From the IMG/VR virus record IMGVR_UViG_3300031867_000025, positions 70,150 to 94,485 of that record: a stretch of 24,336 nt of DNA; one strand, 5' to 3'. The notes beneath the pieces are model-generated. The model did not search any database, was not told the origin of the DNA, and worked only from the letters and a program-made list of their open reading frames with translations. Every line of letters begins with the position of its first letter. Positions within the stretch are counted from its first letter, which is position 1. Below are positions 2,192 to 23,500 of this stretch, piece by piece. The position numbers and the translations under genes were made by a program. This stretch comes from a virus.

Positions 2192-3256
2192 ATGGCTTTA
2201 GATAGAACACAGTTAATTGCATTAGCTAAGGCTACTGCTAAGGCTTCCTTAAATCCTTCTGTCGCTTTTTCTTTTGGTGACAAGAAGCTGACTTATGAAG
2301 CTCTTAATGAAACATTTAGAAAAGAAATGGACGAATTGGCTGGAACATATGCCCAATATCGTGAAAATAAAAATTTAATCTTTAATTTAATTGAAGTAGG
2401 TCTTGATGAAGTTCTTCCTGTGAAGGTTATGCAGAACTATGGACAGTTTGCAGATGTTAAGACTTATGCACAAGGCGATAAGCCTGTATTTAAAGTAAGA
2501 GTTAGCGAAGCTTCCAGAAAGCGTGCTAAATCATTCGTAACCAGAGTTGGTCTTGCCGGTAGATATGAAGTGTTTAAACTTGATGGTTACACTTTAGAAG
2601 TGCCGACAGCTGCTTATGGCGGAGCTGCTCAAATTGGATTTGAAGAGTTCCTTGATGGTCACATTACTATGAGTGATGTATATGATCTTGTTCTTGAAGG
2701 ACTGGATGAAGCAGTGTATCGTGAAATTGCTAAGAGTTTAGTAGCGATGGCGGAAGACGCTAGAATTGGTTCTTACAACAAAGCGAGTGTAGCTGGCTTT
2801 GATGAAGCCGCTTTTGATCGTCTTATAGCTACAGCAGATGCTTATGGAAAGAGTACTATTTATTGTACATATGAATTTGCTGCTCAGATCGCACCTACCG
2901 CCGCGGGAGCAATAAATTGGAATGCTATGTCTAATAATATGAAAGAAGAACGTTGGAATAACGGTTACTTTACTCGTTATAAAACTCATAATATGATTGT
3001 TCTTCCTCAGAGTTTTGAAGATGTCACAAATGCTAAGAAAGTTATTGATCCTAGATATGCATGGATCATTCCTACTGGCGCTGAAAAGCCCGTGAAGGTT
3101 GCTTTCGAAGGTCAGACCGCAGTGCGTGAGCATGAAAATGCTGACTGGTCAAGAGAAATCGAAACCTATAAGAAAATGGGTGTGGCTGTTTATAATGTAA
3201 ATCCTGGCATTTGTGTTTATAAGAACACTTCTTTAAAGACTAATAATGTTCTATAA
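2192..3256 (+). CDS. major capsid protein, HK97-fold family (354 aa), no TAG
   Basis: Uninterrupted ORF with RBS TAGGAGGataacgtaATG. The sequence (…ASRKRAKSFVTRVGLAGRYEVFKLDGYTLEVPTAAYGG…YNVNPGICVYKNTS…) and its size and position match siphovirus major capsid proteins. It is followed by a strong terminator. Confidence 0.8.
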   Translation: MALDRTQLIALAKATAKASLNPSVAFSFGDKKLTYEALNETFRKEMDELAGTYAQYRENKNLIFNLIEVGLDEVLPVKVMQNYGQFADVKTYAQGDKPVFKVRVSEASRKRAKSFVTRVGLAGRYEVFKLDGYTLEVPTAAYGGAAQIGFEEFLDGHITMSDVYDLVLEGLDEAVYREIAKSLVAMAEDARIGSYNKASVAGFDEAAFDRLIATADAYGKSTIYCTYEFAAQIAPTAAGAINWNAMSNNMKEERWNNGYFTRYKTHNMIVLPQSFEDVTNAKKVIDPRYAWIIPTGAEKPVKVAFEGQTAVREHENADWSREIETYKKMGVAVYNVNPGICVYKNTSLKTNNVL

Positions 3257-3275
3257 GGTTAATAATTAACATATT

Positions 3276-3312
3276 ATACCCTCCTTCTTATGAAGAAGGA
3301 GGGTATTATTTA
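3276..3312 (+). terminator. Rho-independent terminator after capsid gene
   Basis: 14-bp perfect stem ATACCCTCCTTCTT / AAGAAGGAGGGTAT (3276-3289 / 3293-3306) with a short loop, followed by the T-rich TATTATTT. Confidence 0.7.
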
Positions 3313-7502: not shown

Positions 7503-8588
7503 ATGAAATTTGGTGTAAGATAGTGTGCAAACATTGTTTTTCGTGCAAAACAGAAGACTGTGATTGGAACATCTACTTTTAATGTAGGTCAACCAGTTCT
7601 TTATATTGATACAGCCACTACTTCCTCTATGGAACAGGCGAGTACTTCAGTATACGCACAAGGCGGACGCGGTAATGCTCGTTTACTTGCATGGGAAGGT
7701 GATAAGACATTAACATTTACTGTTACTGATGCTCTTATTTCTCCTGTTTCGTTAAGTATGTTATCAGGGGCAGGATTAATTAAAACAACTGGAGATTGGG
7801 TTCATGTGCATGCAACAACTGCTGCAACGATGACTCTTACTGGTACTGGTAACGGAGCTGTTGGACAAATTGATTTAACAGATGCATTAGCTGAATTTGG
7901 TGCAATTAATAGTTCTAAGACTGGTGATACTCAATCAGCTGGCAATGGCGGTATTTATGTGGATGCTGGTACAGATGCGCCACTGTTTATAATTGAAACA
8001 GAAGACGATGGTTCTATTACTGGTAGTATCATTACTTCTAATGCCACTGGTGGTATTACATATGAAGTTGAAATGGATACTGTTGATAATACAAAAGTAA
8101 AACGTGCTTATTTAAATATTCCACAGCCTAAAGAAAATAATACTACTGCTTTAACTGAATCAGATGGTAGTATTAATGTATTAGTAGATTATTATGTAGT
8201 TAAGAAATCTGATCAAGTATCTGAAATTCAGCTTACTCCTCAAGATTTTGCAGGATATTATTATGTAGAAGCTGATACTTTATTTAGATCTCAAGCAACT
8301 GGTATTGATATGCCTGCTAACTTAACATTCCCGAATGTTAAGATTCAGTCTGGATTTACTATTAGTATGGCTGGTACTGGTGATCCTAGTACATTTGACT
8401 TTACTATGGATGCGTTCCCAGGATATACTTATTTTGATAAGACTAAACAGGTGCTTTGCGTAATTCAGGTTGTTGAAGATAGTTTAGCTGCAACTTCTGA
8501 AGGACATAGCGTGATGCTTAAGAATACTGGTATTGAACATCCAGATATTTTTGATGATAGCGATTTAGTAGATCCAACAACAATCTAA
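7503..8588 (+). CDS. major tail (tube) protein (361 aa), single TAG at codon 7
   Basis: Strong RBS TAAGGAGGataattcttATG. Track ORF 7560..8588 starts at an internal GTG. The real ATG at 7503 is in the same frame and is separated from it by one TAG (7521-7523). The protein is Thr/Gly/Ser-rich and beta-rich, and the gene is followed by a strong terminator. Together with its position before the chaperone and tape-measure genes this supports a major tail protein. Confidence 0.65.
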
Positions 8589-8595
8589 TTTAAAT

Positions 8596-8630
8596 GGGAG
8601 GATAATTAATAATTATCCTCCCATTTTTTT
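8596..8630 (+). terminator. Rho-independent terminator after major tail gene
   Basis: Perfect 12-bp stem GGGAGGATAATT / AATTATCCTCCC with loop AAT, followed by ATTTTTTT. Confidence 0.8.
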
Positions 8631-9936
8631 GATATGGCGGGAAGAGGTGATTTTATTGCAAAACAATATACAAAAACCAGTTGTTACAATTAATAAAGGA
8701 GGCATTTATGAAGCGATCAAATCTACTGCTAAAAATAATATTAAGCCTGTTTTAGATCAAGAAATGTTAGATTATTATACAAGCATGACTTTAGAAATGA
8801 AAAAAAGAACATTGATAGAATATCAAAAGAAAATGGAATATCAATTAGGGGTCTTAAATGGGACTGAGTAGATCAATGAATATTTTAAAGCTTATGAATT
8901 AATATTAGATTTTCGTGAATTTATTTTAGGAAAATTAGGAAAAATTGATTATACTTTTACTTGGAAGACTACTTATGATGGTCAAGCTTTTATTAGAACT
9001 ATGGTGATTGGTAGAAAAGAAATGGCTGATTTAATAACAGATGAAAATGGAAAATTATTTGGTCTTTCAGGGAAAAAAAATGTTCAAAGAGGACCTACTG
9101 TAGGATTGCGTTTTAATCGTAAGTGGTTAAAACAGATTAATAATTTAGTTAAAAATTTAAATGCTCAAGATATAAATATTACAATAAATCAAGGGGAATC
9201 TTCTTTTTCTATTATTAATGAAAAAACAGGAGCAAGACAAATTTTTGTAAATTCAGGAATGTTTAAAGCAGAGATTAATAATCAAGAGAATAAAAGAGAA
9301 AATAACCAAATTTGGTATATTTTTACTATAGAATTAGAAACTGATAAAACTAAGGATGATGATAAAGAAGTATTTTCTTTTAAAACAAAAACAGTAGAAG
9401 CAAAAAAAGATGCCTTCTCTTCTACTGTTTTTTCAGCAATTGGAAAATATTTTGCAGATGAAATGAGAACAAAGAGAGAGTTAATAGCAAATCGTCAACT
9501 TAGTATAGATCCTAAATATCCTAACGAGGGAGTTTTAACAGAGATGTATATTCGAGCTAAAGTAGAATTAAATCAAGGTCATAATCATTTTAGTTCAGAT
9601 AGAGTGGTGTCTGGAGAAACATTATTTAATCTTTATCAAAAAGCAAAAGGAAATGCGTTGTTTTCTTCTGGCGGGGACTTTTTAATGGAGCAAATAAAAT
9701 CTTTTTTAGGAACTAATCCTACTTTAACTTAGTATTCTACAATACGCAAAACATTATAGTCTTTGGTTGAAGATTTAAAATAGAGCGATTTTCAGAAAAT
9801 GAAAAAAAGTCTTTCTAATGAATTATTACAAACTCCAAAATCTACTAATAAAAAAATTGATGAAAATGTTGAAAACACTTTATATCGGACATTATCATCA
9901 GCTTTATAGACTTTTTTTTCTGACTTGACAACCTAA
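8629..9936 (+). CDS. hypothetical protein (up to 435 aa) between the major tail and chaperone genes; TAG-poor (4 TAG, 3 of them in the last 68 codons)
   Basis: Track ORFs 8629..8871 (TTG start) and 9001..9732 are in the same frame. With TAG as sense the frame continues past 9732 to TAA 9934-9936. The true start may be the in-frame TTG at 8656, preceded by AGGTGAttttaTTG. Function is unknown. Confidence 0.45.
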
Positions 9937-9953
9937 AAATTTTATGTTATAAT
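9925..9953 (+). promoter_or_regulatory. consensus sigma70/sigmaA-type promoter with extended -10, driving the chaperone and tape-measure genes
   Basis: TTGACA (9925-9930), exactly 17 nt of spacer, TGtTATAAT (-10 hexamer 9948-9953). The chaperone ATG follows about 37 nt downstream with RBS AAAGGAAAGGAAG. Confidence 0.65.
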
Positions 9954-9989
9954 TAAAAGAGAAAAGAAAAAAGGAAAGGAAGTATCATA

Positions 9990-10508
9990 ATGAAATATTC
10001 AGATTTAAATTTATCTATTAATAACGATACAGTTACTACACAAACTCCTTTCGGAGATATTGAAGTGCGGAAGTATCTTCCAGTTGAAGATAAAATTGAT
10101 CTTATTGAAATTGCTCTTCAAAAATCAGAAGAAAACGGTATTTATAATGAAATGAAGTTAGCAATGTATTTTAATCTATATATAATTTATATGTATACTG
10201 ATCTTGAATTTACAGATGAAGAAAAGGCGGATGAATATAAATTATATAACGAGTTAGAAAGTAATAATATTATTATCTCTGTGTTAGGTGCGCTTGATGA
10301 ATATGAGGAATTATTCCATTATTTGAACATTATGAAAGATATTAAAATGAAATATAAGACAAGTGCGGCCGCCATGGTGCAAACATTCATCCAGGATATG
10401 CCACGTAATGCCGCTGCAATGTCTGAGATAGTAGATAATTTCGATAAAGAAAAATATAAAGAAGTTGTTGAGTTTGCTAAATACGCTAATGGCGGAAGAC
10501 CTATTTAA
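9990..10508 (+). CDS. tail assembly chaperone (gpG-like; 172 aa), no TAG
   Basis: Uninterrupted acidic ORF immediately upstream of the tape-measure gene. Size, charge and position match phage tail assembly chaperones. TAA stop. Confidence 0.55.
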   Translation: MKYSDLNLSINNDTVTTQTPFGDIEVRKYLPVEDKIDLIEIALQKSEENGIYNEMKLAMYFNLYIIYMYTDLEFTDEEKADEYKLYNELESNNIIISVLGALDEYEELFHYLNIMKDIKMKYKTSAAAMVQTFIQDMPRNAAAMSEIVDNFDKEKYKEVVEFAKYANGGRPI

Positions 10509-10637
10509 TTTGCTTGGACAAAAAACTTCAAATGTTTATTAGACCTTTTGATATTAAGTAGTATTAATATTAAAAGGTCTTTTTTTATTTTTAAAAATAA
10601 ATAAAAAGGAGGAATAGGTATGCCTAATGGCGGAAGA
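10486..10637 (+). repeat. exact 14-nt direct repeat CTAATGGCGGAAGA, at 10486-10499 and 10624-10637, spaced 138 nt apart
   Basis: Read directly from the sequence. Both copies are in frame 0 and encode N-G-G-R. One lies 3 codons before the chaperone stop and the other 2 codons after the tape-measure start. Confidence 0.9.
10541..10592 (+). terminator. strong intrinsic terminator/attenuator between the chaperone and tape-measure genes
   Basis: 17-bp stem AGACCTTTTGATATTAA / TTAATATTAAAAGGTCT containing one G·U pair, a 6-nt loop GTAGTA, then TTTTTTATTTTT. Confidence 0.7.
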
Positions 10638-13600
10638 ATAGATTTTCAAGTTGGTTTTAAAACTGACAAAAGCGGTTTAAATTAGTTAAATAAAATTATT
10701 CAAGACCTTCAGGGAAAATTAACTAATACAGCTAGTAAGAATGGAATGTCTGATAGTTTACGAAAAGCAACTGACGCCGCAAAAGAATTATAGAAAATTA
10801 TAAACGGATCTTGGAATGATAAGCTATAGCAATTAAATGTAAATAAATTTAATACGAGCATAAATAAAGCTTTTGGATCCGCTTCAAATCTTAGAGACAT
10901 TTTAGCTCAATCAGGAAAAGATGGAACTGAAGCTTTTTTAAAAATTAGCTCATAGGTATTAAGCACTAATACTCAATTAAAACAAAGCAATAAGCTTTTA
11001 GATGATATGGCTGATACCTTTGGTAAAACAGTTAAGTATGGTATTGCATCTAGTGTTTTTAACAATATTAAGAATTCTCTTCAACAAGCTTTTTATTTTG
11101 CTAAAGACTTAGATTTATCTTTAACAAATATTAGAATTGTAACTGGTGACAGTGCAGATCAGATGGAACGGTTTTCTAAAACTGCAAACTAGGCTGCTAA
11201 AAATTTGGGCCGGTCTACGTTAGATTATACCAATGCCGCCTTAACTTTTTATCAACAGGGTTTAGGATAGTAGGATGTAAATGCTAGAACTCAAGCCACT
11301 ATGATGGCTCAGAATATTACTGGTGTTGGTACTTAGATGGCAGATTATTTAACTGCTGTTTGGAATGGTTATAAAGTTGGTGCAGAAGAAGCCGTTGAAT
11401 ATGTTGATAAGTTGGCTGCTGTTGCTGATAGTAGTGCGTCTGATATGTCATAGTTGGCTATTGCTATGTCAAAAGTGGCGTCCGCAGCTAATGTAATGGG
11501 CGTTGATTCTGACCAATTAAATGCTCAATTAGCTACTGTTATTGCTACGACTAGATAGGCTCCTGAATCAATTGGTACTGCTTTTAAAACTATTTATGCT
11601 AGAATAAATGATATTAAGGCTGGAACTGATTAGGCTGAAATTAGTTTAGGTAATTATTCTGGTAAAATGGCATCATTAGGATTTAATGTATTTGATACTA
11701 ACGGGAAACTAAAAGATACCGGTGATGTTATTGAAGAAGTTGGTGAACGCTGGGGTACGTTATCTAAAGAACAACAAGTTTATTTGGCTCAAGTAATGGG
11801 TGGTACTCGTCAATACAGTAGATTAATTTCTTTGTTTGACAATTGGAATATGTATTCTGAAATGTTAAACGTATCATTAAATTCATAGGGTACTTTACTT
11901 GAAAAAAATGAACGGTATTTAGATTCTGTAAAAGCCCATTTAGAATCCTTAAACACAGAGGCTGAACGTACATATATGATTTTATCTGATACAGGTGCGA
12001 TTAATGCGGCTGCAGATGCGTTAAATGTTGTTTTAACCTCATTTAATAATTTTCTTAGTGGTTTAGGTGGTGGTATAACCAGTATTACTTATATGGGTTC
12101 TCTTATATCAGGAGTTTTTAGTAAACAAATAGCTAAAGGAATTCAAGATGCTAAAGTACAATTAGATCAATTCTTTTCTACATAGCGAGCGCAGAAGGCT
12201 CAAAAGAAATGGGCGGAAGCTACTGTTTTAGTAACAAATGCTATGAATGGTGGAAATATAAATAGTAAGTCCGCGGGATATAAAGCACAAATTGAATAGG
12301 CTTTAAAATTGCAAAAAGTCGCTTCTGCATTAACAGAAGAAGAACAAAAAAAGGCGGGTTAGTTACAAAGATCTGTTGGTTTACATACAGAATTATTAGT
12401 TAAAGCACAAGAAGAACAAAAACAAGCGGAACAGACAAAAGCTCAATACAATGATCTTTATAAAAAATATAATGAAAATAAATATACTCTTGAATATAGT
12501 ATAGAACTAGAAGAAAAGAAAAATAAAAAAATTTAGCAATCTTTAAGTATTTTTGGACAGATTAATTAGATTCAAACACGAGGGCAACAAGAATAGAAAA
12601 ATAAAAATGCTGCATTTGATTTAATTAATAAAAAAGCTTCTATCTTAAAATAGACTTGGACAAGTATTGGGGTAGAAGAATCTCAAGCTGAAGAATATAT
12701 TAAAAAAATAAAAGATAATATTAAAAATGGAGATGATTATCTTAAAGATATTGAAGATGTTCAAACTGATTTTGTAGATGATTTAAAAAGAGGAAATACA
12801 AATCTTGAAAAAAGAAAAACTCTTTTAGCTGCAGTTTTAACAGATACTTCTAAATAGCAACAATAGAATTAGGAAGGTTTAAAAACAGATAGAGAACGCT
12901 TACGAATACTACGAGAAATGGCGGAGCAACGTCAAAAAACTCAAAAAATCGTACAATCTATTTCAGCAATAGGTCAAGTATTTTCTGCTGTTGCTGGAGC
13001 AGCAAAAGTTTTTGGAGATGAATCTTCTACAGGAGCAGAGAAAGCAAATGCGGCTTTTTCCACTGTACAAGGAACTATTTCGGCTATAGGGACTTATATA
13101 GGAGGACCATTTGGCACAGTAGTAGCTTCTGCGGTAAATTCAGTATTATCCTTAATAAAAGAAGTGACTCCTTTAGGTAAGGTAATGGAGGATTATTTTT
13201 CTTCTACTGAGGAAAAACTTCAAAAAATAAAAGATTTACATAAAGAAATAGATAAGGCTTCTCAAGATCATAATAAATCTAAACAAGCTTTAAAAGATAT
13301 TCAAGAAGAGTATGATAAATTAACAAGTAAATCTGGATCTTTAACTAATGCTGAGCAAGAGCGTTTAAATGAATTAGCTGAAATATTTAATAATTATAGT
13401 GATGGAGTTATTTTAGGCTATAATCAACAAGGCGATGCAATTATTAATAAAAATAGAAAAATAGATAATACTTTGGAAAAAATGGATCAATAGTATGAAG
13501 CTATTTTACGTAATAATCAAGCTAGAATGGATATTTCAGCCTAGGATAAAGCTTATCAAAATGCTTCAGACAGAGTTAAAGAATTAGAAACAAATGAAGT

Positions 13601-16600
13601 CTGGACAGGATAGACTCCAGAAGAAAATTTTTCATCTTATCTTACAACTATTAGACAAAATTTGACAGATCCTAATTTATATAGTTTTTATGACAATATT
13701 GATGGGATGCAAAAAACATTATTTGATACCCATGGAGTTGCTGTTCCTAAAATACAAGCCATTTTGGATAATTTTGAACAAGAACTCGCTGAAGCAGAAA
13801 ATATTTAGGATTTGGTTGCGGCTGCTTAGCCGTTATATGGAATTGCTACAAAAATAGATAATTTTAAATATGATGAAGAAAATGGTGATCAGCAGAGAAA
13901 AGACGAAGCTGCCGTTACAGAACAATTAAGAACTAATGTTCAAAGTCTGATATCAGCTGTTTAGCGTTTGAATAGTCAATATGTTGAAGCAAAATAGGAA
14001 GTAGAATAGTATACTAAAATTGATACTGGATATGTATTTCAAGGATTAAGATTATCTAAAGAATATAGTTCTTTTAAAAAGCAGGCTGGAGATAAATTAT
14101 GGAATAACGGCTTATAGGAAATTTTAGATGGTATTATTACAACCTTAGCTGAAGAAGCAGAAAGATCGGAAGACACTCCTACTGGAGATGCAGCAATAGA
14201 ACAAGGTCAAGAATATCTAGCTAATTTATTAACCATATTTGACCCTAAAGTAATTAATTAGGCAATGTAGAATCAACAAAAAACTATAGATAATATTATT
14301 GAACAAAATGGAAAAATTTCTGTAGGAAAATTGATTCAACAAACTAAACAAACTGCTACTTCTTTATATGAAAGTTTAATTAATGAATAGTCTACTTAGT
14401 AGCAAAAAGAAGCCGTTACTAAATTATTAAATATGTTATTTGGCTTTGATATGACAACAGGCACCTCAGAGTTAGAAAATAAAGTTAATGATTTTGTAAA
14501 AACCGCAACCGATTTAGTAACAGAAAAGGCTAAAGAAAAAGGAATTGATTACACCCCAACTCAATAGGAAACACAAGCTTTTACTTCTTTTGCAAAATCT
14601 TTGCCAGAAGCAGAGTTAGATATGAAATTAACTAATATTGATGACATGATAGCAGATAATATTTTATCTCTTACAAATTTAGTTAATGCTTATAAAATGG
14701 CAGGTAATGAAATTTCTAATTTTGGTAATGCAATAGATTTTAGTTGGGATAATCAAATAAAATTGTCAACTGCTTTAGGAAAAGCTAAAAGTTATAGTAA
14801 TATTGAAGGAGCTAATGATTTTTTAAGTTATTTGGAAGCTAATAATCCTAAATTAAAAGAGTTGGCTTCTAAATAGGGTGGGCGTTATGGAGAACTTTAT
14901 GTTCAAGAATATAATCGAATTATAAAACAAAATAAAGAAAAAGAAATTAAAGAAACAGAGACAAGAATAAATACCCTTTAGAAAAGATTAAATACATATA
15001 AAGATAAGGGAGTAAGCTCAGAGAGTGAAAAAGTTAAGAATGCTACAACAGAATTAGGCTCTTTACAAACTCAATTAATTTAGCAACAGAGTGATTTAGC
15101 GAGATTGACAGAAGAGACAAACTAGTCATTAGATGAACAAAATGAAAAACTTGAAAAGCAAGTTTCTTTATTAAAGAATTTTAAACAAAATAATGAAACT
15201 AATAATAATGCATTAAGTGCATATGATAAATTAAAATCAGACTCAGGCTCAAAACTAACTGATAAAGAAAGTGCTGCTATAGCAGATTTAACATCAAGGT
15301 ATATAGAATTAGCTTAGGCTTAGAAAAAATATGGTGTTGGAACCATATAGTATATGTATGTTTTAGAAGATGTTTTAAAATTAGAGCGGGAAAGAGTTAG
15401 TGCTTTACAAGCGCAGTCAGCAGAAAAATTAACGGCTTTGTCAGAAATAGATGAATAGGATTTACAAAATAAAATAGATAAAGCAGATGCTATAATTGAA
15501 AATAATCAAAATAAATTAGTTTAGGTATAGAAGTAGTATAGTGCTGAAATTAGTCGGGCTTTGCAAGCAGGTCTTAATGGAGAGCAAATACAAACTATAA
15601 CTGATAAATATAGCACAAAAATTAAAGAAATTTCTGATAATATTGATAAATTTACATAGAAAAAAGCTAAATGGCAAGAAACTATGGATCTTTTAAAAGA
15701 AAATCCATAGGCGGCCGCGGATGCAATGTAGGCTTTAGGTATGACTGTTGATGGTTTAGATGAAAAATATGTTAATTTATCTGATAAACTTAATGGATTA
15801 AACGGGTTTTATGAAAAATTATCTGAAGGCGCGCAATTAAGTAAAGAAGAGCTTCTTGATTTTAGCGATTTATTAGATTCTATCCAATAGCAATATGACG
15901 GTTTAGATAATACAATAGAAACTCTTAGAAAAACATGGATGTCTGGAACAGAATAGTATTCAATAGCACTATAGGAACTTCAGTCAAAATTAACTAGCTT
16001 ATCTCTTCAATAGGCATATGATAAGTTGACTTATGATGCTAATGAAGTTGAACATATCTTTATTCAAGTAGATGATGAAGCTTTTCAATCATGGAAAGAA
16101 GATGTTGAACGATTTTTTGAAGATGATAAAACTATGTCTGTTAGAGTAGATAATGCATTAGATCAAGAAATTAATAAAATTAAAAAGGATTTTGATGAAA
16201 TATATAGTGCAGCTAGTAAGATAGGAGAAGGCTTTAAAGTTTCTGCATCTGATATTGGTGAAATTACTAAAGTATTTCCATAGATTACAGAAGGCATGGT
16301 TCGTTTTGCAGACGGGTCTTATCAATTAAATCAGCAAGTGGTCCAACAAGCTATTTCCGCGGCGCAGGCAGAGGTTTCTGCAAATGGATAGGCTATTGCT
16401 GAAAAAATTAAACAATAGGCTGATTATCACAATGCTAAAGCAGACATATATGACCAAATAGCAGCTATTGCAGCTTAGATGGCTGAGAATTAGGTCATGA
16501 CCGAAGAAGACAAAAATTAGCGTATAGGTCAAATCAATGGTCTTTTGAGTCAACTGCAAGAATAGAATAAAGGAAAAGTTGTTGAGTATTAGAAAAAAGC

Positions 16601-19600
16601 TAGCGATGAAATAAAAGTAAAAGAATAGGATACTGCTACTCATAGACAATCTATAAATGCTAATATGTATAGAAGTCTTACTGAAATGAGTAATGCTAGA
16701 GCGCAACAAGATGTGGCAAATACGCAAGCAATGTTTGATGCAGATCAAGCGCGCGCTAATAATATGCGGCCTGCAGATTATGTTGCGGGAAATGGTTTAG
16801 ATGCATTTAATGGACGAGCTCCTATTCAAAGTAGTTATTCAGTTATTGATCCAGGGTCTACAGCTCAAGATACTTTTACTATTAACCCAGACTTTGGTAC
16901 ATATTCTACTCAAGATTGGCGAAATTTATAGAGTCAAGCAAGAGCGCGTGCAGAGCAAGAGAGACGCCTTGCAGAATTAGCTATGTCTAAATATTATGAT
17001 ATTATGGGCAGGGCTAATAAGACCATTTACGGACTTGGAAATGTGGGTCGTGGAGAAGGTATCGAAGGAGCTAAACCAGAAAAAGAAAAAGAAGAGAAAC
17101 CAAAAGAAGAAAAAGTTCAGGAGCCGCCAGATCCTAATATTGAAAAATATTTAAAGGATGAGTTTGATAGATATCATGATATTAATATTATTATTTAGAG
17201 AATAAATCGTCAATTAAAAAATATGTAGGCTCAACAAAAGAAACTTGTTGGTAAAGATTTAATTCATAATTATCAAAGACAATTAGAATTATTAAATTAG
17301 CAAATTGAAGCTCAAAAGCAAAAAATGAGTATTGCTCAACAAGAAGCGGGAGAGCTGCGGGCGAGTTTAAGCGCACAGGGGTTAGCGTTTCAAGAAAATG
17401 GATAGATCGCAAATTATCTTGGTGTATTATCAGCAAAACAAAATGCAATTAATGAATATATTGGTTTTTATAATTCTTTAACTAAAGAAGAACAAGAATA
17501 TGCCAAAGATGTTCTTGATTCTATGAAAGAACAATATGAGGACTTAAAGAAAGATATTGCTCGTTATGATGAAGTTGTTAATACTATGATTCCTGATTTA
17601 GCTGATCAGATACGTGAAGAAACTTAGAAAAAGGTTGAAATAGCTATTTCTAAGAGTAAAATGGCGGTTGATATAAAAATTGATATGTCTCAATTACAGC
17701 GTGATTATAATAAATTTTTGAAGAATATTAAGTATCAAATAAAAGATTGGGATATATTAGGTAGTACAAAGTATGCTTTTAAAGATTTACAATCTTATTT
17801 CCAAGATGGTATATATAATTCAACAAAAGCGCAAACTGATCACATTTATTTTCTTATAGATCAACTTCGTCAAATAAATCAATCAGGTTTTTCTGATGTA
17901 TATGGAGATAATAAAAAACAGGCATTAGACGATTTATAGCATTATAGACAAAGTCTTGAGGGAGATTTAGAAAGTATTCTAGGACTAATTGATCAAATTA
18001 AAGAAAATGTTATAAAGGCTATTGAACAAGTAGAAAAAGGTTTCCAAGATAGATAGAAATATTATAATCACGTTTCAAGTTTATTAGATCATGATTTGAA
18101 AGTTGTTGAATTAATTTATGGCAAACAGGCTTATGATAAAATGGATACTATGTATCAAAGACGTTTTGAACATGATGTAGATCATTTAAATAAGCTTGCG
18201 GAAGAAAAGGAATATTGGCGGGAACAGTTAGAAAAAGAAAAGGCACACCAAAAATTATTAAAGCAGGGAAGTAATGTTTGGCAAGAATCTCAGGAGCGGA
18301 TTAAAGAGTTTGAATAGAACTGGATGGATGCAACAGATAGACTGAACTCCGCGTTTGAAGCTTCTCTTGATAATGTTATTAATAAATATAAAAATGGTGT
18401 AGATCAAATTTTTGATAAGTATGAAAGATAGATGTTTGGTGGTCAAACTATTGATGAACTTATTGAAGATTGGGAATTAGCAAAAGAAGCAGCAAATATA
18501 TACTTAGATAATGTAAATAGAACTTATGCTATTGATAAGTTAAGTAATGGATATGATCAATTATTTGAGAAAGCTAATGGTAATCTTAAATTACAAAAGG
18601 AAATTAATGCTGCAAAAGAGGCTGAGGTTTAGAGTTTAAAGAAAATGGAAAAAATAGATCAAGGCACAATTGATGTTGCTAATAAAAAACTATAGGTACT
18701 TCAAGCCCAAATTGCTTTAGAAGATTCTCGTAATAATAGGTCTACTTTACAATTAAGACGTGATTCTCAAGGTAATTATTCTTATCAATATGCGGCAGAT
18801 ATGGATGATGCTGAAGATAAATTACAAAAATATAAAGATGAAACAAATGAGCTTTATAATCTTGCTAAAAGGTTGCAAAATTAGTATGAAGAAAAAACTA
18901 TGTAGGCAACAAAGAGAATGATTGATAAAGTTAAGGAACTTCGTTATGAAGCTTATTTATTTGACATAGACACATCCGCAAGAGAATAGGAGATCGTGAA
19001 AACTTATTTAGGTAATATATAGGCTTATGCAGGAATTTCAGAGCAACATAAAGTAGATACAGCCAAATAGGCTCTTGCTACAATTACAGATAATGACCCT
19101 AATTATAGCTATCGAAGAGTATTTGATCCTCAATCAGGTAAATTATCTACATATTATGGTTATGGATAGACAACGGTTAAAGAATGGGCTAAACATAATG
19201 AAGAAACTATAACTAAAATGATGCAAAATTTGGAAGCGGGCCCATACGCAGCCAATAAAAAAGCTTTTTATGATATGATTTATAATAATGGTAATGGTAT
19301 GGTTCCAATGTGGAGTAGTGGAGTTTCTAAGTATATTGAAAGAATTAATAGTGGTCCAGATGGATTACGTCCTGTTATGAGATAGGCTATAAAAGAATTA
19401 AATGGGCTACTTGTTAGTTATAAAAAAGAATTTATTGAATTAGCTAGTTCCGCAAAGAAAGATACTAAAACTATAGGAACTGGATTAAATGATGATATTA
19501 AATTAACTAAAGAACTTGTTACAGATAATGAAAAATTATTAGATTCTTATCAAGATATTTTTAATGATATGATGAATCACTGGATTCCTACTTTAGAAAA

Positions 19601-20459
19601 ATATATTAAAAAGCATGAAGAATTACAAGCTGCGATTGAGGCTGTTACTAAAGCTTATAAGATTCAACAAGAAGAACAAAGGCGGGCGGCAGAAGCTGCT
19701 ACCCAAGTAGCTGGATCTGCGGCGGTTTCTATAGGAGACACTTCTTTATTTGATGGAACTTATAATCAGGTACATCCTGATGTAAGCTATAGCAGCCACA
19801 GCAGTAGTCGTAGACGAAATACTGTCGTGATAGATCCTGGTGCTTATGGAGGCGGGGGCGGTTTTGGAATAGGCTCTACGGTAAGGTTTTTATCAGGTCG
19901 ATATACAGCAAATTCTTCTGGAGGAGGTACATCTGGAGATGCTTCTTTAGGAAGCTATGTAACAATAACTCTTACTAATCCTGGAGCTCCTCGTCCTTAT
20001 CATATCTCAGGATCAGATTATTGGGGAAATTATTCTGATTTAGGATGGGTTTCTGAAGATCAATTAGGTTATAGATCAGGAGGTTACACTGGAGAATGGG
20101 GGTCTTCTGATGGAAGATGGGCATTACTTCATCAAAAAGAACTTGTATTAAATGCTCAAGATACTTAGAATATGTTAGAAGCGGTAAGGACTGTCCGTGA
20201 CTTAACTGCTGAAATGCAAGCTAATTATAGACAACGTTTATTACAATATCAACTTATGCAAGAATAGATGAGTGCATTACAATCAAAAATGCTTTTTGAT
20301 ATGAATAGTTTCTTATTTACTGATAGAGAACAAACTCCAGTTCAACAAAATGTTTATATTACGGCAGATTTCCCAGCAGCTCAATATCATAGAGAAATTG
20401 AATTAGCATTTGAAAATCTTACAAATCGTGCTTCTCAGTATTTATTTACTAGTAGATAA
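10620..20459 (+). CDS. tail tape measure protein, giant (3279 codons), with roughly 100 in-frame TAG codons read as sense
   Basis: RBS AAAAAGGAGGaataggtATG. All 14 track ORFs from 11007 to 20459 are in frame 0, and the segments checked in between contain only TAG interruptions, never TAA or TGA. The N-terminal region carries the conserved tape-measure core (…GKTVKYGIASSVFNNIKNSLQQAFYFAKDLDLSLTNIRIVTGDSADQMERFSKTAN…LDYTNAALTFYQQGLG…MADYLTAVWNGY…). The remainder is a long alpha-helical K/E/Q-rich region with a Gly-rich C-terminal domain. The gene ends at TAA 20457-20459. Confidence 0.85.
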
Positions 20460-20464
20460 AATTA

Positions 20465-20487
20465 AAGGAGGGGTTTATCCCCTCCTT
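20465..20487 (+). other. stem-loop (9-bp stem) between the tape-measure and tail-tip genes that sequesters an SD-like sequence
   Basis: AAGGAGGGG tttat CCCCTCCTT. No U-tract follows on the + strand, so it is not a canonical + strand terminator. The real RBS AAAAAAGGAGG follows. Confidence 0.5.
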
Positions 20488-20506
20488 AAAAAAGGAGGTT
20501 TAATAT

Positions 20507-23500
20507 ATGAGTGATATAACTCAAAATTTATTAGATACAATATCAATGATAGCAGCCCATGCTGTATCTAATGCTTAGTTTGATAGAACAATACAGGCGG
20601 TAATTGTATCTTGTGAAGATTAGGCGTTAGGAAAATATAAAGTTAAATATCAAGATTCTTTATGGATGGCTTATAATAATAATTCTACTACAAAATATAG
20701 CGCAGGAACTAGCGTATATGTGCTTGTGCCTGGAAATAATATGTCAAAAAATAAAACAATTATAGGTACAGTTAGTGCATTAGGAGAAAATTACATTAAT
20801 TATATTAGTAATGAATAGAATTATATTGAAAATGGAAATAGTATTGTAGAAATGTCAGAAGAAACAGAATATGGATTATGTTCTTATGAAATAGAAGATA
20901 GTAAAACTTTAATAGGAGAAGAAGGTTTTATACTAAATACCGATGCGGCTAATGAATATTTAAGTACGTCTGAATATATATTATTAAAAGCTGATTTCCG
21001 CACTAATCTTGCAAAAGAGCAACGTCGCGCAGGTAACTATGGTTTAAAAGCAAGATTGATATTTAAAACACAAGAAGATCCAAACAAAACATATGGAATG
21101 GATTACGTATTAGATATAGATAATATGGTTGGTAATCCATATTTATTATCTGCTCCACTAACTCAAAAAGCATATTTTCCTATTGATGGAGCAAATTTTG
21201 TTAGAGTTGAATCAATTAGTATTTTTAGTGAGGGATTTATTAACCATATAGCAAATAAATCTGATGACATTTTCGTTTCTGGTATAGAAATAATAGGCGC
21301 AAATACTTTAACAGAATAGGAAAAACAAGGTATTTCTTTACGTTTTAAACGTCCAAAAGGATATATTTTTACTTCAGCCGATAATTCTTAGGCTATAAAA
21401 ACAGTAATTGCACAGATTAGAGTGGCAAATAAATTATTAACGTCTACTGAAAATGTAGAATATTATTGGTTTAAACAAAATATAACTGTTGAGGCGGGTA
21501 GTCAACGTTATAGTAAAGCTGGTGGAAAAGGTTGGGAATGTTTAAATTAGTTGAATACATCATAGGCAACAGATATTAAATTTTTACCTGGAATAGATAC
21601 ATTTACAATTAAAAAAGCGGATGCTATAGCGGAACATACTAAATTTAAATGTGTTGTTGTTTATGATGGAAAAGAAATTTCTAATACTTTTGAAATAATA
21701 AATAAAGATTCTCAGTATATTATTGAAATAATTTGTGATCAGTAGCCAGTCTTTTATCCAAATGTAGATACTTTACATTTAACTTGTTTAGTTAAAAATC
21801 GTTAGGATGGGTCTGAAACAACAGGGGTAGCATATAATTGGAGATTAATAACTTAGCATAATACTTATTATTCATTAAGTGAAACTACTAACGTTTTAAC
21901 TATACAATCTGATAGTATACGTAATTATAATGATTATTATTGTTCAATATATAATTCAGGAACTTTAATTGGAACGGCAACTTTAAGAGTAACAAAAAAT
22001 GCAGAACCATAGAATAGATATATTCTTTCTTTAGTAAATGGAACACAAGTATTTAATTATGATGAAATGGGACATAGTCCTTATGATATATATCGTCAAG
22101 CGGGAAGAACTATCCCGCAGCTTAGCTTTACTGTTGCGGATGTTGTAACCGGAGCAGATGTAACAAATTAGGTTAAAGATATCATATGGACAATTCCATT
22201 AAAAAATACTTTATTGACTGATGAAAATCAAGCAGAAGGACAAATGAGTGAAAACGGAGAATATAAAGAATATACTAATTTACAAGATTTTACGTATGGT
22301 ATTGATAGTAGATATTATCATAATTTTACTAATAATGAAATTAAATTAAAAGTAATTATTCATGGGATAGAATTGTATGCAAAAACTAATTTTACATTTA
22401 CAAAAGAAGGAGATCCTGGTACTAATGGAACTGATATAATTTGTAAAATTGTAGCATCAAAAGATGATAATATTGTTCCTGGTTGGCTAATTGCGGATTA
22501 TAAAAGAGGAACATATAATTGGGATAATATGATTGTTTAGTTGTGGCGGAATGGATAGAGAATTTTTGGAAGCAGAACAAGTCGCGCCAAAGCTAATAAT
22601 TAGCCAGAAATTAAAGTTACTTGGGAATTTTTAAGTAATACGGATAAAACATTGTGGTTTAAGATCCCAGAAGGCGCCTCTACTATTACAGATCATCAAG
22701 ATGCAACAGAAAATAAGGTAGTGCTTTTTAATGATAAGACATTGTCTATGAATTCATTAAATTGGACTGAGGTAGATGGTTACCCCGCCAATATACTAAA
22801 AGTGACAGTGTAGTATGATCAAAATAGAAAGTATTATGATACTCGTCCTATTGTTACCGTATTTGAAGAATCTTCTACCAGTAATGAAGTTACTTTAGAA
22901 TCTTATTCCGGTTTTTAGTATGCAGTATATTCGGAAGATGGTGAAAATCCATTATATGATGATTTAAATCCTTTTACTATTGTACAATCTGCGAGTAGTC
23001 GATAGAATGTAACATGGTCAGTTATAGGATCTGTAAGATCTGGATATGAGAAATTTGCAGCTATTTCCGCATCTAATTTTGAAATAGACAGATTTAAAAA
23101 TAGTCAAAATAATATTACAGATAGTAATGGAGATAAAATGTATTTTAGACCTAAGCCTACTTATGATGGGTTATGTGTTACAAATGCTATTTTGGCTAAA
23201 GGTTCTCATTTTTGGTTGCATATTCCTATACATTTAATGTATAACAGATATGGGCATAAACAGTTAAATGATTGGGATGGAAATTCAATTGTAATGAATG
23301 ATAAAGAAGGATAGGATCATTATATTTTAACTCCTCAAATTGGAGCTGGTATGAAAAATTCAGAGGACAACACTTTTACTGGATTAATGATGGGTACAAC
23401 TAAGGTGATTACTGGCGATCCGGATGGTTATACTATATAGACTGGATTGCTTGGGTATAATAATGGAGAAAGAACAATATTTTTAGATGCTAAGACTGGT

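What the first reader, a model, noticed from the sequence alone, without database searches (positions are those of the whole stretch)
9925..10622. Consensus promoter plus strong terminator bracket the chaperone, so the tape-measure gene must be expressed by terminator read-through (attenuation in place of the usual G/GT frameshift arrangement)
A perfect TTGACA-17-TGtTATAAT promoter (9925-9953) precedes the chaperone gene. A 17-bp-stem terminator with a U-tract (10541-10592) sits in the 112-nt gap between the chaperone stop and the tape-measure start, and there is no recognisable promoter after it. No T ORF or slippery site precedes the tape-measure gene; the only A_AAA_AAC heptamer (10520-10526) is downstream of the chaperone stop. 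This looks like transcriptional control of the chaperone-to-tape-measure ratio, normally set by the programmed -1 frameshift in siphoviruses.
Basis: partly seen in the sequence, partly recalled or inferred. Interest (0 to 1): 0.55.

Follow-up and report, generated by a model that had tools for sequence, protein, structure and literature searches.

The report
Early-type promoter/terminator cassette around tail chaperone
In this gut/rumen phage, which reads TAG as an amino acid, the small chaperone-like gene in front of a giant tape-measure gene has its own host-type promoter and terminator, conserved across a whole clade; this is a real regulatory design built from known parts, but nothing shows that it replaces the usual chaperone frameshift.

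Summary
TTGACA-17-TGtTATAAT (9925-9953) is the only perfect sigma70-type promoter in the window. A 17-bp hairpin with a U-tract (10541-10592) lies between the 172-aa gene (9990-10508) and the tape measure (10620-20459). Nothing promoter-like follows the hairpin, and there is no T ORF or usable slippery site.

Both signals are conserved. 34 of 35 related loci keep the promoter (at least 11/12 matches, 17-nt spacer). 25 of 25 keep a hairpin plus T-run, with strong covariation and G·U pairs only on the + strand.

- The phage reads TAG as sense: the tape measure (3,279 aa) has 85 TAG codons, and the upstream gene runs through the -35 hexamer.
- In relatives, the same promoter and leader design marks the many early genes and the first gene of the structural operon.
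- Similar hairpins follow the capsid and tube genes.

Best reading: an early-class, host-polymerase transcription unit for a chaperone-like protein, insulated from the tape measure, which needs transcripts that pass the hairpin. The phrase "in place of the G/GT frameshift" is unsupported. The frameshift sets the G:GT ratio, and a relative lacks both the frameshift and the cassette.

The parts
7503..8588 (+). Tail tube gene (YomU_Tube-like, phrog_2729); context, first gene of the tail block
   Evidence: PHROG hit E=7.4e-50. The orthologue in relatives carries PF27173 YomU_Tube.
8592..8631 (+). Hairpin after the tube gene (16-bp stem, 8592-8626) plus T-run; terminator-like
   Evidence: Conserved in position but not in sequence in L002, L005, L008, L009, L011 and in Enterococcus phage VRE9_2.
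8656..9936 (+). Hypervariable gene between the tube and chaperone-like genes. The start is uncertain: TTG 8656, or ATG 8764 as called in L172. It reads through in-frame TAG codons and ends at TAA 9934-9936, so its last codons contain the -35 hexamer.
   Evidence: No BLAST similarity to the 523-aa gene at the same place in L002, although the neighbouring chaperone-like proteins are 94% identical.
9925..9953 (+). Sigma70/sigmaA-type promoter: -35 TTGACA (9925-9930), 17-nt A/T-tract spacer, extended -10 TG (9945-9946), -10 TATAAT (9948-9953). Start site predicted near 9960.
   Evidence: The only 12/12 site with TG in the window. Conserved in 34 of 35 related loci. Same design as the early-gene promoters and the promoter of the first structural-operon gene in relatives.
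9954..9989 (+). Purine-rich 5' leader with a ribosome-binding site (aaaggaaaggaag, 9970-9982)
   Evidence: The string aaaggaaaggaagt is identical to the leader of an early gene in L265, and the leader style matches other early genes.
9990..10508 (+). 172-aa chaperone-like gene (phrog_30570; relatives carry a weak PF27287 'YomO' hit). No TAG codons; ends in the conserved motif ANGGRPI.
10541..10592 (+). Intrinsic-terminator-like element: 17-bp stem with a 6-nt loop (10541-10580), then T6-A-T5 (10581-10592)
   Evidence: Present in 25 of 25 non-redundant relatives, with wobble pairs only on the + strand. Covariation: 12 of 14 pairs compensated, 0 of 500 shuffles. No Rfam family matches.
10606..10612 (+). 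Ribosome-binding site AAGGAGG of the tape-measure gene, 7 nt before the ATG
   Evidence: A GGAGG-type site is conserved in all relatives.
10620..20459 (+). Tape-measure gene: 3,279 codons including 85 in-frame TAG. PhageMin_Tail domain at residues 190-389.
   Evidence: Orthologues of 3,151-3,549 aa are called in relatives.
3276..3306 (+). Hairpin after the capsid gene (14-bp stem), downstream of the YonB-like major capsid gene 2192-3256; same kind of punctuation
   Evidence: Hairpins at the same position in L254, L256, L257 and L265. YonB assignment.

Best explanation
The 172-aa gene is an autonomous transcription unit read by the host's housekeeping RNA polymerase, embedded in the tightly packed structural operon of an SPbeta-like siphovirus that reads TAG as sense.

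The consensus promoter with an extended -10 (9925-9953) and its purine-rich leader are of the same class as this clade's early-gene signals. The gene has no TAG codon. It can therefore be transcribed and translated by unmodified host machinery, probably earlier and at a much higher level than its neighbours.

The conserved RNA hairpin plus U-tract (10541-10592) ends most of these transcripts. It keeps this strong, unregulated transcription out of the 9.8-kb tape-measure gene and the distal tail genes.

The tape measure has no host-type promoter of its own. It is made only from transcripts that get past the hairpin. These start at 9925 or further upstream in the operon, and the upstream ones have already met similar hairpins after the capsid and tube genes. 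Translation of the tape measure also needs suppression of 85 TAG codons.

The net effect is a large and probably early excess of chaperone-like protein over an exceptionally long, aggregation-prone client.

Shown: the signals, their conservation, RNA-level selection on the hairpin, the promoter class, the lack of any alternative promoter, and the lack of a frameshift partner.

Inferred: promoter activity, termination efficiency, timing, and the chaperone function itself. Whether read-through is passive leak or phage-induced antitermination is unresolved; I rate the two about equally likely.
For: - Promoter uniqueness and chance level.
- Promoter conserved with an invariant 17-nt spacer, 24-64 nt before the ATG, in 34 of 35 loci down to about 30% protein identity.
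- Homology between the window and L002 resumes exactly at the -35, next to a hypervariable gene.
- Hairpin plus T-run in 25 of 25 loci. All wobble pairs are G.T on the + strand, which would be C.A on the other strand.
- Covariation statistics.
- Intergenic gaps of the structural block are 14-40 nt with no room for promoters.
- Nothing is conserved between the hairpin and the tape-measure ATG except the T-run and the ribosome-binding site.
- In relatives, perfect promoters of the same design are dense in the leftward early region (11 in 3.5 kb of L265). In the structural block they occur only before its first gene and before the chaperone-like gene.
- Terminator-like hairpins also follow the capsid and tube genes, conserved in position.
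- TAG is 20/207 of Gln-type codons in the small gene against 368/1366 in tape-measure segments across the clade (Fisher p = 7.6e-9, not corrected for phylogeny).
- The capsid, tube and chaperone-like genes have 0-1 TAG; the tape measure has 85.
- Position between the tube and tape-measure genes, plus weak fold similarity to tail assembly chaperones.
Against: - There are no expression data of any kind; everything about activity is inferred from sequence.
- The absence of TAG in the window's copy alone is not significant, because the gene has only 4 Gln codons (P = 0.26).
- Some relatives carry 1-3 TAG codons in the gene.
- Standard-code relatives also have the cassette (L020, L040, L042, L047), so the idea of expression independent of the code switch cannot be its general rationale.
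- L015 and L017 lack the promoter but keep the hairpin.
- A promoter for a phage-encoded sigma factor that overlaps the hairpin cannot be excluded, since its consensus is unknown.
Confidence: 0.6

Rival explanations
1. The promoter/terminator pair sets the chaperone-to-tape-measure ratio by attenuation, the tape measure is fed essentially only by leak from the promoter at 9925, and this arrangement has replaced the G/GT programmed frameshift.
For: - Promoter and terminator are real and conserved.
- No promoter follows the hairpin.
- There is no T ORF or slippery site in 17 loci.
- 9925 is the nearest promoter. Upstream transcripts must cross two further hairpins.
Against: - The frameshift sets the gpG:gpGT ratio and supplies a T domain that recruits the tube protein. 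It does not set chaperone:tape-measure stoichiometry (PMC5009743; PMC4493119).
- Nothing here replaces a T domain.
- Enterococcus phage VRE9_2 has the homologous gene with neither a frameshift partner nor the cassette, so the two traits are uncoupled.
- No alternative RNA structure suggests regulated attenuation.
Confidence: 0.12
2. Late transcription is insensitive to the terminator. The tape measure is transcribed by a modified or phage-specific polymerase: holoenzyme with the phage sigma-like protein, an antiterminated complex, or a YonO-type enzyme. That polymerase ignores the three hairpins. The hairpin at 10541 acts only on early host-polymerase transcripts, so no leak-based ratio control exists.
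For: - In SPbeta, one YonO-dependent operon covers all 37 late genes (PMC5467207), although a hairpin plus T-run lies 42 nt upstream of its tape-measure gene.
- The morphogenetic module here is SPbeta-like: YonD, YonB, YomW, YomV, YomU.
- The first gene of the structural operon in relatives matches phrog_5767 'sigma factor' at E = 1.9e-49.
- The promoter at 9925 is of the early class.
Against: - A YonO profile finds nothing in the window, in L172, in the 10 kb upstream of the terminase in 12 relatives, or in other held loci.
- The sigma label has no Pfam or PDB sequence support.
- No candidate late-promoter motif or antiterminator was found.
- Only about 35 kb of these 95-135 kb genomes could be inspected.
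Confidence: 0.3
3. The cassette is a moron-like accessory unit. The 172-aa protein is not, or not only, a tail chaperone. It would be an early or prophage-expressed protein with another role, such as host takeover or exclusion, that happens to sit in the tail module.
For: - Promoter-gene-terminator inside a late operon is the classical moron architecture.
- The promoter and leader are of early-gene type.
- The neighbouring gene is a recombination hotspot.
- The chaperone fold evidence is weak, and PHROG lists the family as function unknown.
Against: - The gene is present at the same position, immediately before the tape measure, in every relative examined, with 381 homologues of uniform length.
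- A homologue sits between the tube and tape-measure genes even in cultured Enterococcus phages. It therefore behaves as a core gene, not an accessory one.
- The best solved-structure matches with any biological link are tail assembly chaperones.
Confidence: 0.1
4. The hairpin is mainly a 3' mRNA stabiliser or processing site for an abundant message, not a terminator.
For: - The stems are unusually long and perfect (13-20 bp).
- Similar hairpins follow the other abundant-protein genes.
Against: - Every copy is followed directly by a T-run of 4-8, the defining feature of intrinsic terminators and not needed for a stabiliser.
- The base of the stem is the G+C-rich part.
- The two roles are not mutually exclusive.
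Confidence: 0.08

Closest known systems
Lambda-type gpG/gpGT tail assembly chaperones (programmed -1 frameshift upstream of the tape-measure gene)
   Different: There is no overlapping T ORF and no slippery heptamer, so no GT product is possible. The gene is separated from the tape measure by a terminator and has its own promoter. Lack of the frameshift is unusual for siphoviruses but not unprecedented (Microbacterium cluster EA subclusters, PMC7302621).
Morons of lambdoid/HK97-like phages (promoter-gene-terminator units inside late operons)
   Same: The same three-part architecture, placed between late structural genes and readable by unmodified host polymerase.
   Different: Morons are accessory and variably present. 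This gene is conserved at a fixed position across the clade and has homologues in the tail modules of cultured phages.
Internal terminators after abundant structural genes (T7 T-phi after gene 10; f1/M13 terminator after gene VIII; hairpin after the major tail gene in Cluster O mycobacteriophages, PMC4351075)
   Same: A hairpin plus U-tract directly after genes whose products are needed in large amounts, giving stepwise lower transcription of the genes behind it. Here such hairpins follow the capsid, tube and chaperone-like genes.
   Different: Here the third step is paired with a dedicated consensus promoter that re-starts transcription just for the chaperone-like gene. The T7 and f1 comparison rests on my own knowledge, not on a tool result.
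SPbeta late operon transcribed by the single-subunit polymerase YonO
   Same: The morphogenetic module is homologous (YonD, YonB, YomW, YomV, YomU). SPbeta also has a hairpin plus T-run just upstream of its tape-measure gene.
   Different: No YonO homologue was found in the parts of the clade's genomes that could be inspected. SPbeta has several other genes between yomO and the tape measure. SPbeta YomO is barely detectable as a relative of the 172-aa protein (E = 0.0076 against a 6-sequence set).
TAG-recoded ('code 15') gut phages with code-dependent late genes (bioRxiv 10.1101/2021.08.26.457843)
   Same: In-frame TAG codons are concentrated in structural and late genes. Early-region ORFs in relatives are TAG-poor, and so are the abundant structural genes. 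A related gut phage, Phass-1, is filed under 'Caudoviricetes code 15 clade'.
   Different: The cassette itself is not tied to recoding, because standard-code relatives have it too. No suppressor tRNA lies in the window.

Membership tests
Sigma70/sigmaA-type promoter with extended -10 | -35 hexamer TTGACA and -10 hexamer TATAAT separated by 17 +/- 1 nt | tested here: met
   12/12 matches with a 17-nt spacer at 9925-9953. At least 11/12 with exactly 17 nt in 34 of 35 related loci.
Sigma70/sigmaA-type promoter with extended -10 | TG dinucleotide one base upstream of the -10 hexamer | tested here: met
   TG at 9945-9946. Present in 27 of the 35 related loci.
Sigma70/sigmaA-type promoter with extended -10 | Transcription initiates about 7 nt downstream of the -10 with the host holoenzyme | not testable with these tools
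   Needs 5'-end mapping or a reporter assay.
Intrinsic (Rho-independent) terminator | Stable stem-loop with a G+C-rich base, formed in the RNA of the transcribed strand | tested here: met
   17-bp stem in the window; hairpin energies in relatives are -11 to -24 kcal/mol. 97.1% of cells paired and 12 of 14 pairs compensated. Wobble pairs occur only on the + strand.
Intrinsic (Rho-independent) terminator | U-tract immediately 3' of the stem | tested here: met
   T6-A-T5 at 10581-10592. A T-run follows the stem in 25 of 25 relatives.
Intrinsic (Rho-independent) terminator | RNA release at the U-tract, and its efficiency | not testable with these tools
   Needs Term-seq or in vitro transcription.
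Regulated transcription attenuator | Alternative antiterminator structure, or a leader that senses a signal | tested here: inconclusive
   The fold of 10509-10619 shows only the terminator hairpin and a weak A/U helix. No Rfam family matches. The sequence between the stop codon and the hairpin is not conserved, apart from a TTGGACA-like stretch that is coding in L006.
Tail assembly chaperone, gpG/gpGT type | Gene located between the major tail/tube gene and the tape-measure gene | tested here: met
   The order is tube, variable gene, 172-aa gene, tape measure, in the window and in all close relatives. The homologue also lies between the tube and tape-measure genes in VRE9_2.
Tail assembly chaperone, gpG/gpGT type | Programmed frameshift near the 3' end giving a longer GT product | tested here: not met
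   No overlapping ORF; extensions past the stop are short (59 and 43 nt in the window). No conserved in-phase slippery heptamer in 17 loci.
Tail assembly chaperone, gpG/gpGT type | Chaperone fold or sequence family | tested here: inconclusive
Tail assembly chaperone, gpG/gpGT type | Binds the tape measure and is absent from virions | not testable with these tools
   Needs biochemistry or proteomics.
Pfam PF27287 (YomO) | Significant match to the family model | tested here: inconclusive
   Only precomputed hits in some relatives, marked 'weak' (also listed). The model is not in the local Pfam copy. A profile of the family against SPbeta YomO gives E = 0.0076 in a 6-sequence set, 4.9 bits.
Moron | Own promoter and terminator inside a late operon | tested here: met
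Moron | Accessory gene, present in some relatives and absent in others | tested here: not met
   Present at the same position in every related locus fetched. 381 homologues of 172-187 aa.

The most novel reading that the evidence does not exclude
The cassette and the TAG recoding together form a two-layer timing device. The chaperone-like protein has an early-type promoter and no TAG, so it is made by unmodified host machinery before the code switch. Its 3,279-aa client (85 TAG) and the phage's sigma-like regulator (early-type promoter but 7-11 TAG) can only be translated once TAG suppression is on. The terminator stops the early promoter from transcribing the tape measure prematurely. In this reading, a single-form chaperone, whose conserved C-terminal ANGGRPI tail resembles the NGG motif at the tape-measure N-terminus, does without a frameshifted GT partner.
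Probability: 0.12. Interest if true: 0.7.

Novelty: new variant of a known kind. Interest (0 to 1): 0.42.

Why it matters
Almost all long-tailed phages are thought to use the G/GT frameshift for tail assembly. This clade of large SPbeta-like phages, mostly known only from metagenomes, has tape measures of about 3,150-3,550 aa, a single chaperone-like gene without a frameshift partner, and dedicated host-type expression signals around it.

If the signals work as they read, the clade shows how the supply of a tail chaperone can be uncoupled from the late operon, in both amount and timing. It also gives a defined 700-bp fragment (9900-10620) that can be tested in a reporter system without growing the phage.

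For annotation there is a practical lesson. Under the standard code, the upstream gene, the tape measure and most late genes are mis-called, and the promoter appears to sit in a long non-coding gap that does not exist.

The wider pattern would make these phages a good system for studying how codon reassignment and transcription control are combined. That pattern is early-class promoters at only two places in the structural block, one of them in front of a heavily TAG-recoded sigma-like gene.

Tried and rejected
1. Read-through or ribosome hopping that fuses the small protein to the tape measure. This was suggested by the shared frame, the two TAA codons and the 14-nt repeat CTAATGGCGGAAGA. Rejected because the frame offset is 0, 1 or 2 in relatives and the DNA repeat exists only in the window's closest kin.
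2. A TAG-gated C-terminal tail in some relatives. This was my own misreading and was corrected; the codon is CAA/CAG.
3. The A_AAA_AAC heptamer as a frameshift site. It lies after the stop and is not conserved.
4. A hidden T-like partner. SPbeta YomN and the two extra Enterococcus-phage genes (112 aa and 452 aa) have no counterpart in any frame of the window. The SPbeta yomO/yomN overlap itself is not a convincing G/GT pair.
5. The conserved promoter spacer as a specific operator. The spacer pattern occurs in many unrelated AT-rich phage contigs, so it is generic.
6. A promoter using the TTGGACA stretch after the stop codon, starting inside the hairpin. There is no consistent -10. In L008 there is no room for one, and in L006 the stretch is coding.
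7. A YonO-type polymerase in the clade. None was found in the regions I could reach; the rest of the genomes remains unseen.
8. tRNA or Rfam RNAs in the promoter-dense early region or in the cassette. None were found.
9. TAG-freeness of the window's gene as evidence on its own. It is not significant (P = 0.26).
10. Close DNA relatives among cultured phages. None were found.
Full report
**What is in the sequence**

The window is 31% G+C. It only makes sense if TAG is read as a sense codon.
- With TAG as a stop, long ORFs cover 4,267 codons. With TAG recoded they cover 9,660 codons, and a single 3,284-codon frame opens at 10605-20459.
- That frame carries the PhageMin_Tail domain (PF10145, E = 1.2e-25). 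It is a 3,279-aa tape-measure gene starting at ATG 10620, with 85 in-frame TAG codons.
- From the roughly 1.5 Å per residue seen in lambda (my own knowledge), this implies a tail of about 0.5 µm.
- Relatives' gene calls give tape measures of 3,151-3,549 aa.
- A related gut phage, Phass-1, is filed under 'Caudoviricetes code 15 clade'.
- The window contains no tRNA gene.

**Checking the observation**

- TTGACA (9925-9930), a 17-nt spacer, TG (9945-9946) and TATAAT (9948-9953) form the only 12/12 site with an extended -10 in the 24 kb. With up to one mismatch allowed, the pattern is expected 0.07 times per shuffled window.
- The 172-aa gene runs from 9990 to 10508.
- A 17-bp stem (10541-10580) is followed by T6-A-T5 up to 10592.
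- No + strand promoter-like site follows it before the tape-measure ATG.
- There is no T-type ORF. A -1 or +1 shift reaches at most 59 or 43 nt past the stop. No in-phase slippery heptamer lies in the 3' half. The one AAAAAAC is at 10520, after the stop.

Corrections:
- The gap is 111 nt, not 112.
- The two genes share a frame in the window, separated by two TAA codons.
- Because TAG is sense, the upstream gene does not end at 9730. It ends at TAA 9934-9936, so the -35 hexamer encodes its last residues.

**Conservation**

The 172-aa protein has 381 homologues, all free-standing and 172-187 aa long. I fetched their genomic context from assemblies, IMG/VR and metagenomes.
- Promoter: among 35 loci of the clade with non-identical flanks (about 30-100% protein identity), 34 have a site with at least 11/12 matches and exactly 17 nt of spacer, 24-64 nt before the ATG. 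22 are 12/12 and 27 have the TG. L015 and its duplicate L017 lack it.
- Hairpin: all 25 non-redundant loci with downstream sequence have a 13-20 bp hairpin followed by a T-run, and 24 have no mismatch.
- Covariation: RNAalifold gives 14 consensus pairs, 12 with compensatory double changes. 97.1% of cells are paired against 76.5% in shuffles (0 of 500 reach this), and controls with slid partners fall to 41-52%.
- Strand: every wobble pair is G·T as read on the + strand and would be a C·A mismatch on the other strand. Selection therefore acts on the + strand RNA, as expected for a terminator and not for a protein-binding DNA palindrome.
- After the hairpin: only the T-run and a GGAGG-type ribosome-binding site are conserved before the tape-measure ATG.
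- Rfam has no match.

**What the small protein is**

- It matches phrog_30570 (function unknown). Some relatives carry a weak precomputed PF27287 'YomO' hit.
- The AlphaFold2 model is confident (pLDDT 87.6): a beta-hairpin followed by nine helices.
- Together with its fixed position before the tape measure, 'chaperone-like' is reasonable but not proven.
- Cultured relatives, the Enterococcus phages EF1, EF5, VRE9_1-4 and H1, have a homologue between the tube and tape-measure genes.
- In VRE9_2 that homologue has no promoter, no terminator and no overlapping T ORF.

**The wider layout**

A contig identical to the window over this region (L172) extends upstream. It shows an SPbeta-like morphogenetic module: terminase, portal, YonD, YonB (capsid), YomW, YomV and YomU (tube).

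Intergenic gaps in this block are 14-40 nt, which is just ribosome-binding sites. The block is interrupted by three long-stem + strand hairpins:
- after the capsid gene (3276-3306)
- after the tube gene (8592-8626)
- after the chaperone-like gene

The first two are conserved in position, but not in sequence, in relatives.

The gene between the tube and chaperone-like genes is hypervariable. The window's copy and L002's copy share no detectable similarity, and homology resumes exactly at the -35.

**The promoter class**

I fetched 10 kb upstream of the terminase in 12 relatives.
- The rightward structural operon begins after a divergent intergenic region. Its first gene, 406 aa, matches phrog_5767 'sigma factor' at E = 1.9e-49. 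Pfam and PDB sequence searches do not confirm this label.
- That gene is preceded, in all 10 relatives where it could be located, by aaCTTGACA, a 17-nt A/T-tract spacer and TGgTATAAT, with 11-12 of 12 matches. This is the same design as the promoter at 9925.
- Left of it, the early region is dense with perfect promoters of this design: 11 in 3.5 kb of L265 and 11 in L262. Each lies about 30-40 nt before an ATG with an aaaggaaaggag-type leader. The window's leader contains the identical string aaaggaaaggaagt.
- In the structural block such promoters occur at only two places: before its first gene and before the chaperone-like gene.

The promoter at 9925 is therefore an early-class, host-polymerase signal embedded in the late block.

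**TAG usage**

- The capsid, tube and chaperone-like genes have 0-1 TAG, while the tape measure has 85.
- The zero in the window's small gene is not significant by itself, because the gene has only 4 Gln codons (P = 0.26).
- Pooled over the clade, TAG is 20/207 of Gln-type codons in the small gene against 368/1366 in tape-measure segments (p = 7.6e-9, not corrected for phylogeny).
- The sigma-like gene, despite its early-type promoter, has 7-11 TAG codons, about half of its Gln-type codons.
- The cassette also occurs in relatives whose tape measures have no TAG at all (L020, L040, L042, L047). It is therefore not a consequence of recoding.

**How it most likely works**

The small gene is an autonomous unit read by the host's housekeeping polymerase. 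It is probably expressed earlier and at a far higher level than its neighbours. The terminator ends most of these transcripts and shields the 9.8-kb tape-measure gene from this unregulated transcription.

The tape measure is expressed only from polymerases that pass the hairpin. They start at 9925 or further upstream, and the upstream transcripts have already met two similar hairpins. In recoded members, translation also requires TAG suppression. The result is a large excess of chaperone-like protein over a very long client.

I cannot decide whether read-through is passive leak or active. SPbeta offers a precedent for the active case. Its polymerase YonO transcribes all 37 late genes as one operon (PMC5467207), even though a hairpin plus T-run lies 42 nt before its tape-measure gene. 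However, a YonO profile finds nothing in the roughly 35 kb of the clade's genomes that I could inspect.

The inference that the tape measure depends on read-through holds for host-type promoters. The claim that this stands 'in place of the G/GT frameshift' does not.
- The frameshift fixes the gpG:gpGT ratio at about 30:1 and supplies a T domain that recruits the tube protein (PMC5009743; PMC4493119). It does not set the chaperone-to-tape-measure ratio, and nothing in the cassette supplies a T function.
- VRE9_2 lacks both the frameshift and the cassette, so the two traits are uncoupled.
- Absence of the frameshift is atypical. It is described as conserved in long-tailed phages 'except T4', although exceptions are on record (Microbacterium cluster EA, PMC7302621).

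**Novelty and score**

The parts are standard: a consensus promoter, an intrinsic terminator, and stepwise terminators after abundant structural genes. A terminator after the major tail gene is also seen in Cluster O mycobacteriophages (PMC4351075).

What is new is the combination. An early-class promoter/terminator unit surrounds a core, frameshift-less chaperone-like gene in front of a giant tape measure. It is conserved across a large clade that is mostly uncultivated and partly TAG-recoded.

I rate it a new variant of a known kind, with interest 0.42. All statements about activity, timing and protein function are inferences that need transcript mapping or reporter assays.

Noticed in passing
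window 1-24336 (for example TAG at 10684, 10792 and 10828 in the tape-measure frame): The whole window uses TAG as a sense codon, with 144 in-frame TAG codons in 14 gene models. Under the standard code most late genes fragment. No suppressor tRNA lies in the window.
   Followed up: yes
window 10486-10499 and 10624-10637: There is an exact 14-nt direct repeat, CTAATGGCGGAAGA, at the end of the chaperone-like gene and at the start of the tape measure. The DNA repeat occurs only in the window's closest kin. At peptide level, the motif ANGGRP[IL] at the C-terminus of the small protein co-occurs with NGG.I.F at the tape-measure N-terminus across the 60-100% identity clade, and both are absent in L001 and L019. 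The meaning is unknown.
   Followed up: partly
window 8656 (or 8764)-9936: The gene between the tube and chaperone-like genes is hypervariable. It has no similarity to the gene at the same place in L002, although the flanking genes are about 94% identical. The recombination junction lies immediately upstream of the -35 hexamer. There are no family hits.
   Followed up: partly
window 20465-20509: After the tape-measure stop, AAGGAGGGG (20465-20473) pairs with CCCCTCCTT (20479-20487). The same anti-SD stretch can instead pair with the true ribosome-binding site GGAGG (20494-20498) of the next gene, whose ATG is at 20507. This could be a decoy-SD translational switch or a coupling device.
   Followed up: no
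window 3276-3306 and 8592-8626: Long-stem terminator-like hairpins lie directly after the capsid (YonB-like) and tube (YomU-like) genes. They are conserved in position but not in sequence in relatives. The hairpin after the tube gene is also present in the standard-code Enterococcus phage VRE9_2.
   Followed up: partly
L265 7515-8797 (and the equivalent in L254-L264): The first gene of the structural operon in relatives matches phrog_5767 'sigma factor', without Pfam or PDB support. It has an early-type consensus promoter but 7-11 TAG codons, so its translation would depend on TAG suppression. This may link the code switch to late transcription.
   Followed up: partly
L265 1-3500; L262 1000-7600: Perfect TTGACA-17-(TG)nTATAAT promoters occur at very high density in the early region of relatives: 11 in 3.5 kb of L265 on both strands, and 11 in L262. 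Most sit in front of short genes with purine-rich leaders. There are no tRNA genes, and Rfam (run on L265 only) gave no match.
   Followed up: partly
L006 3612-6531 and L007 3336-6255: In one lineage the tape-measure region is split into a 219-aa N-terminal ORF, an HNH_3 endonuclease gene (276 aa) and the remainder. This resembles the HNH insertion next to the tape-measure gene reported for mycobacteriophage Corndog (PMC4351075).
   Followed up: no
L172 2265-2752 (about 1.4-1.9 kb upstream of the window start): The 489-nt gap between the terminase and portal genes holds a small TAG-containing ORF. Its translation looks like a restriction-endonuclease-like or homing-endonuclease-like protein.
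   Followed up: no
L052 (SPbeta) 37337-37363: SPbeta has an intrinsic-terminator-like hairpin plus T-run overlapping the end of yomJ, 42 nt upstream of the tape-measure gene yomI. It lies inside the operon reported to be transcribed as one unit by YonO.
   Followed up: partly
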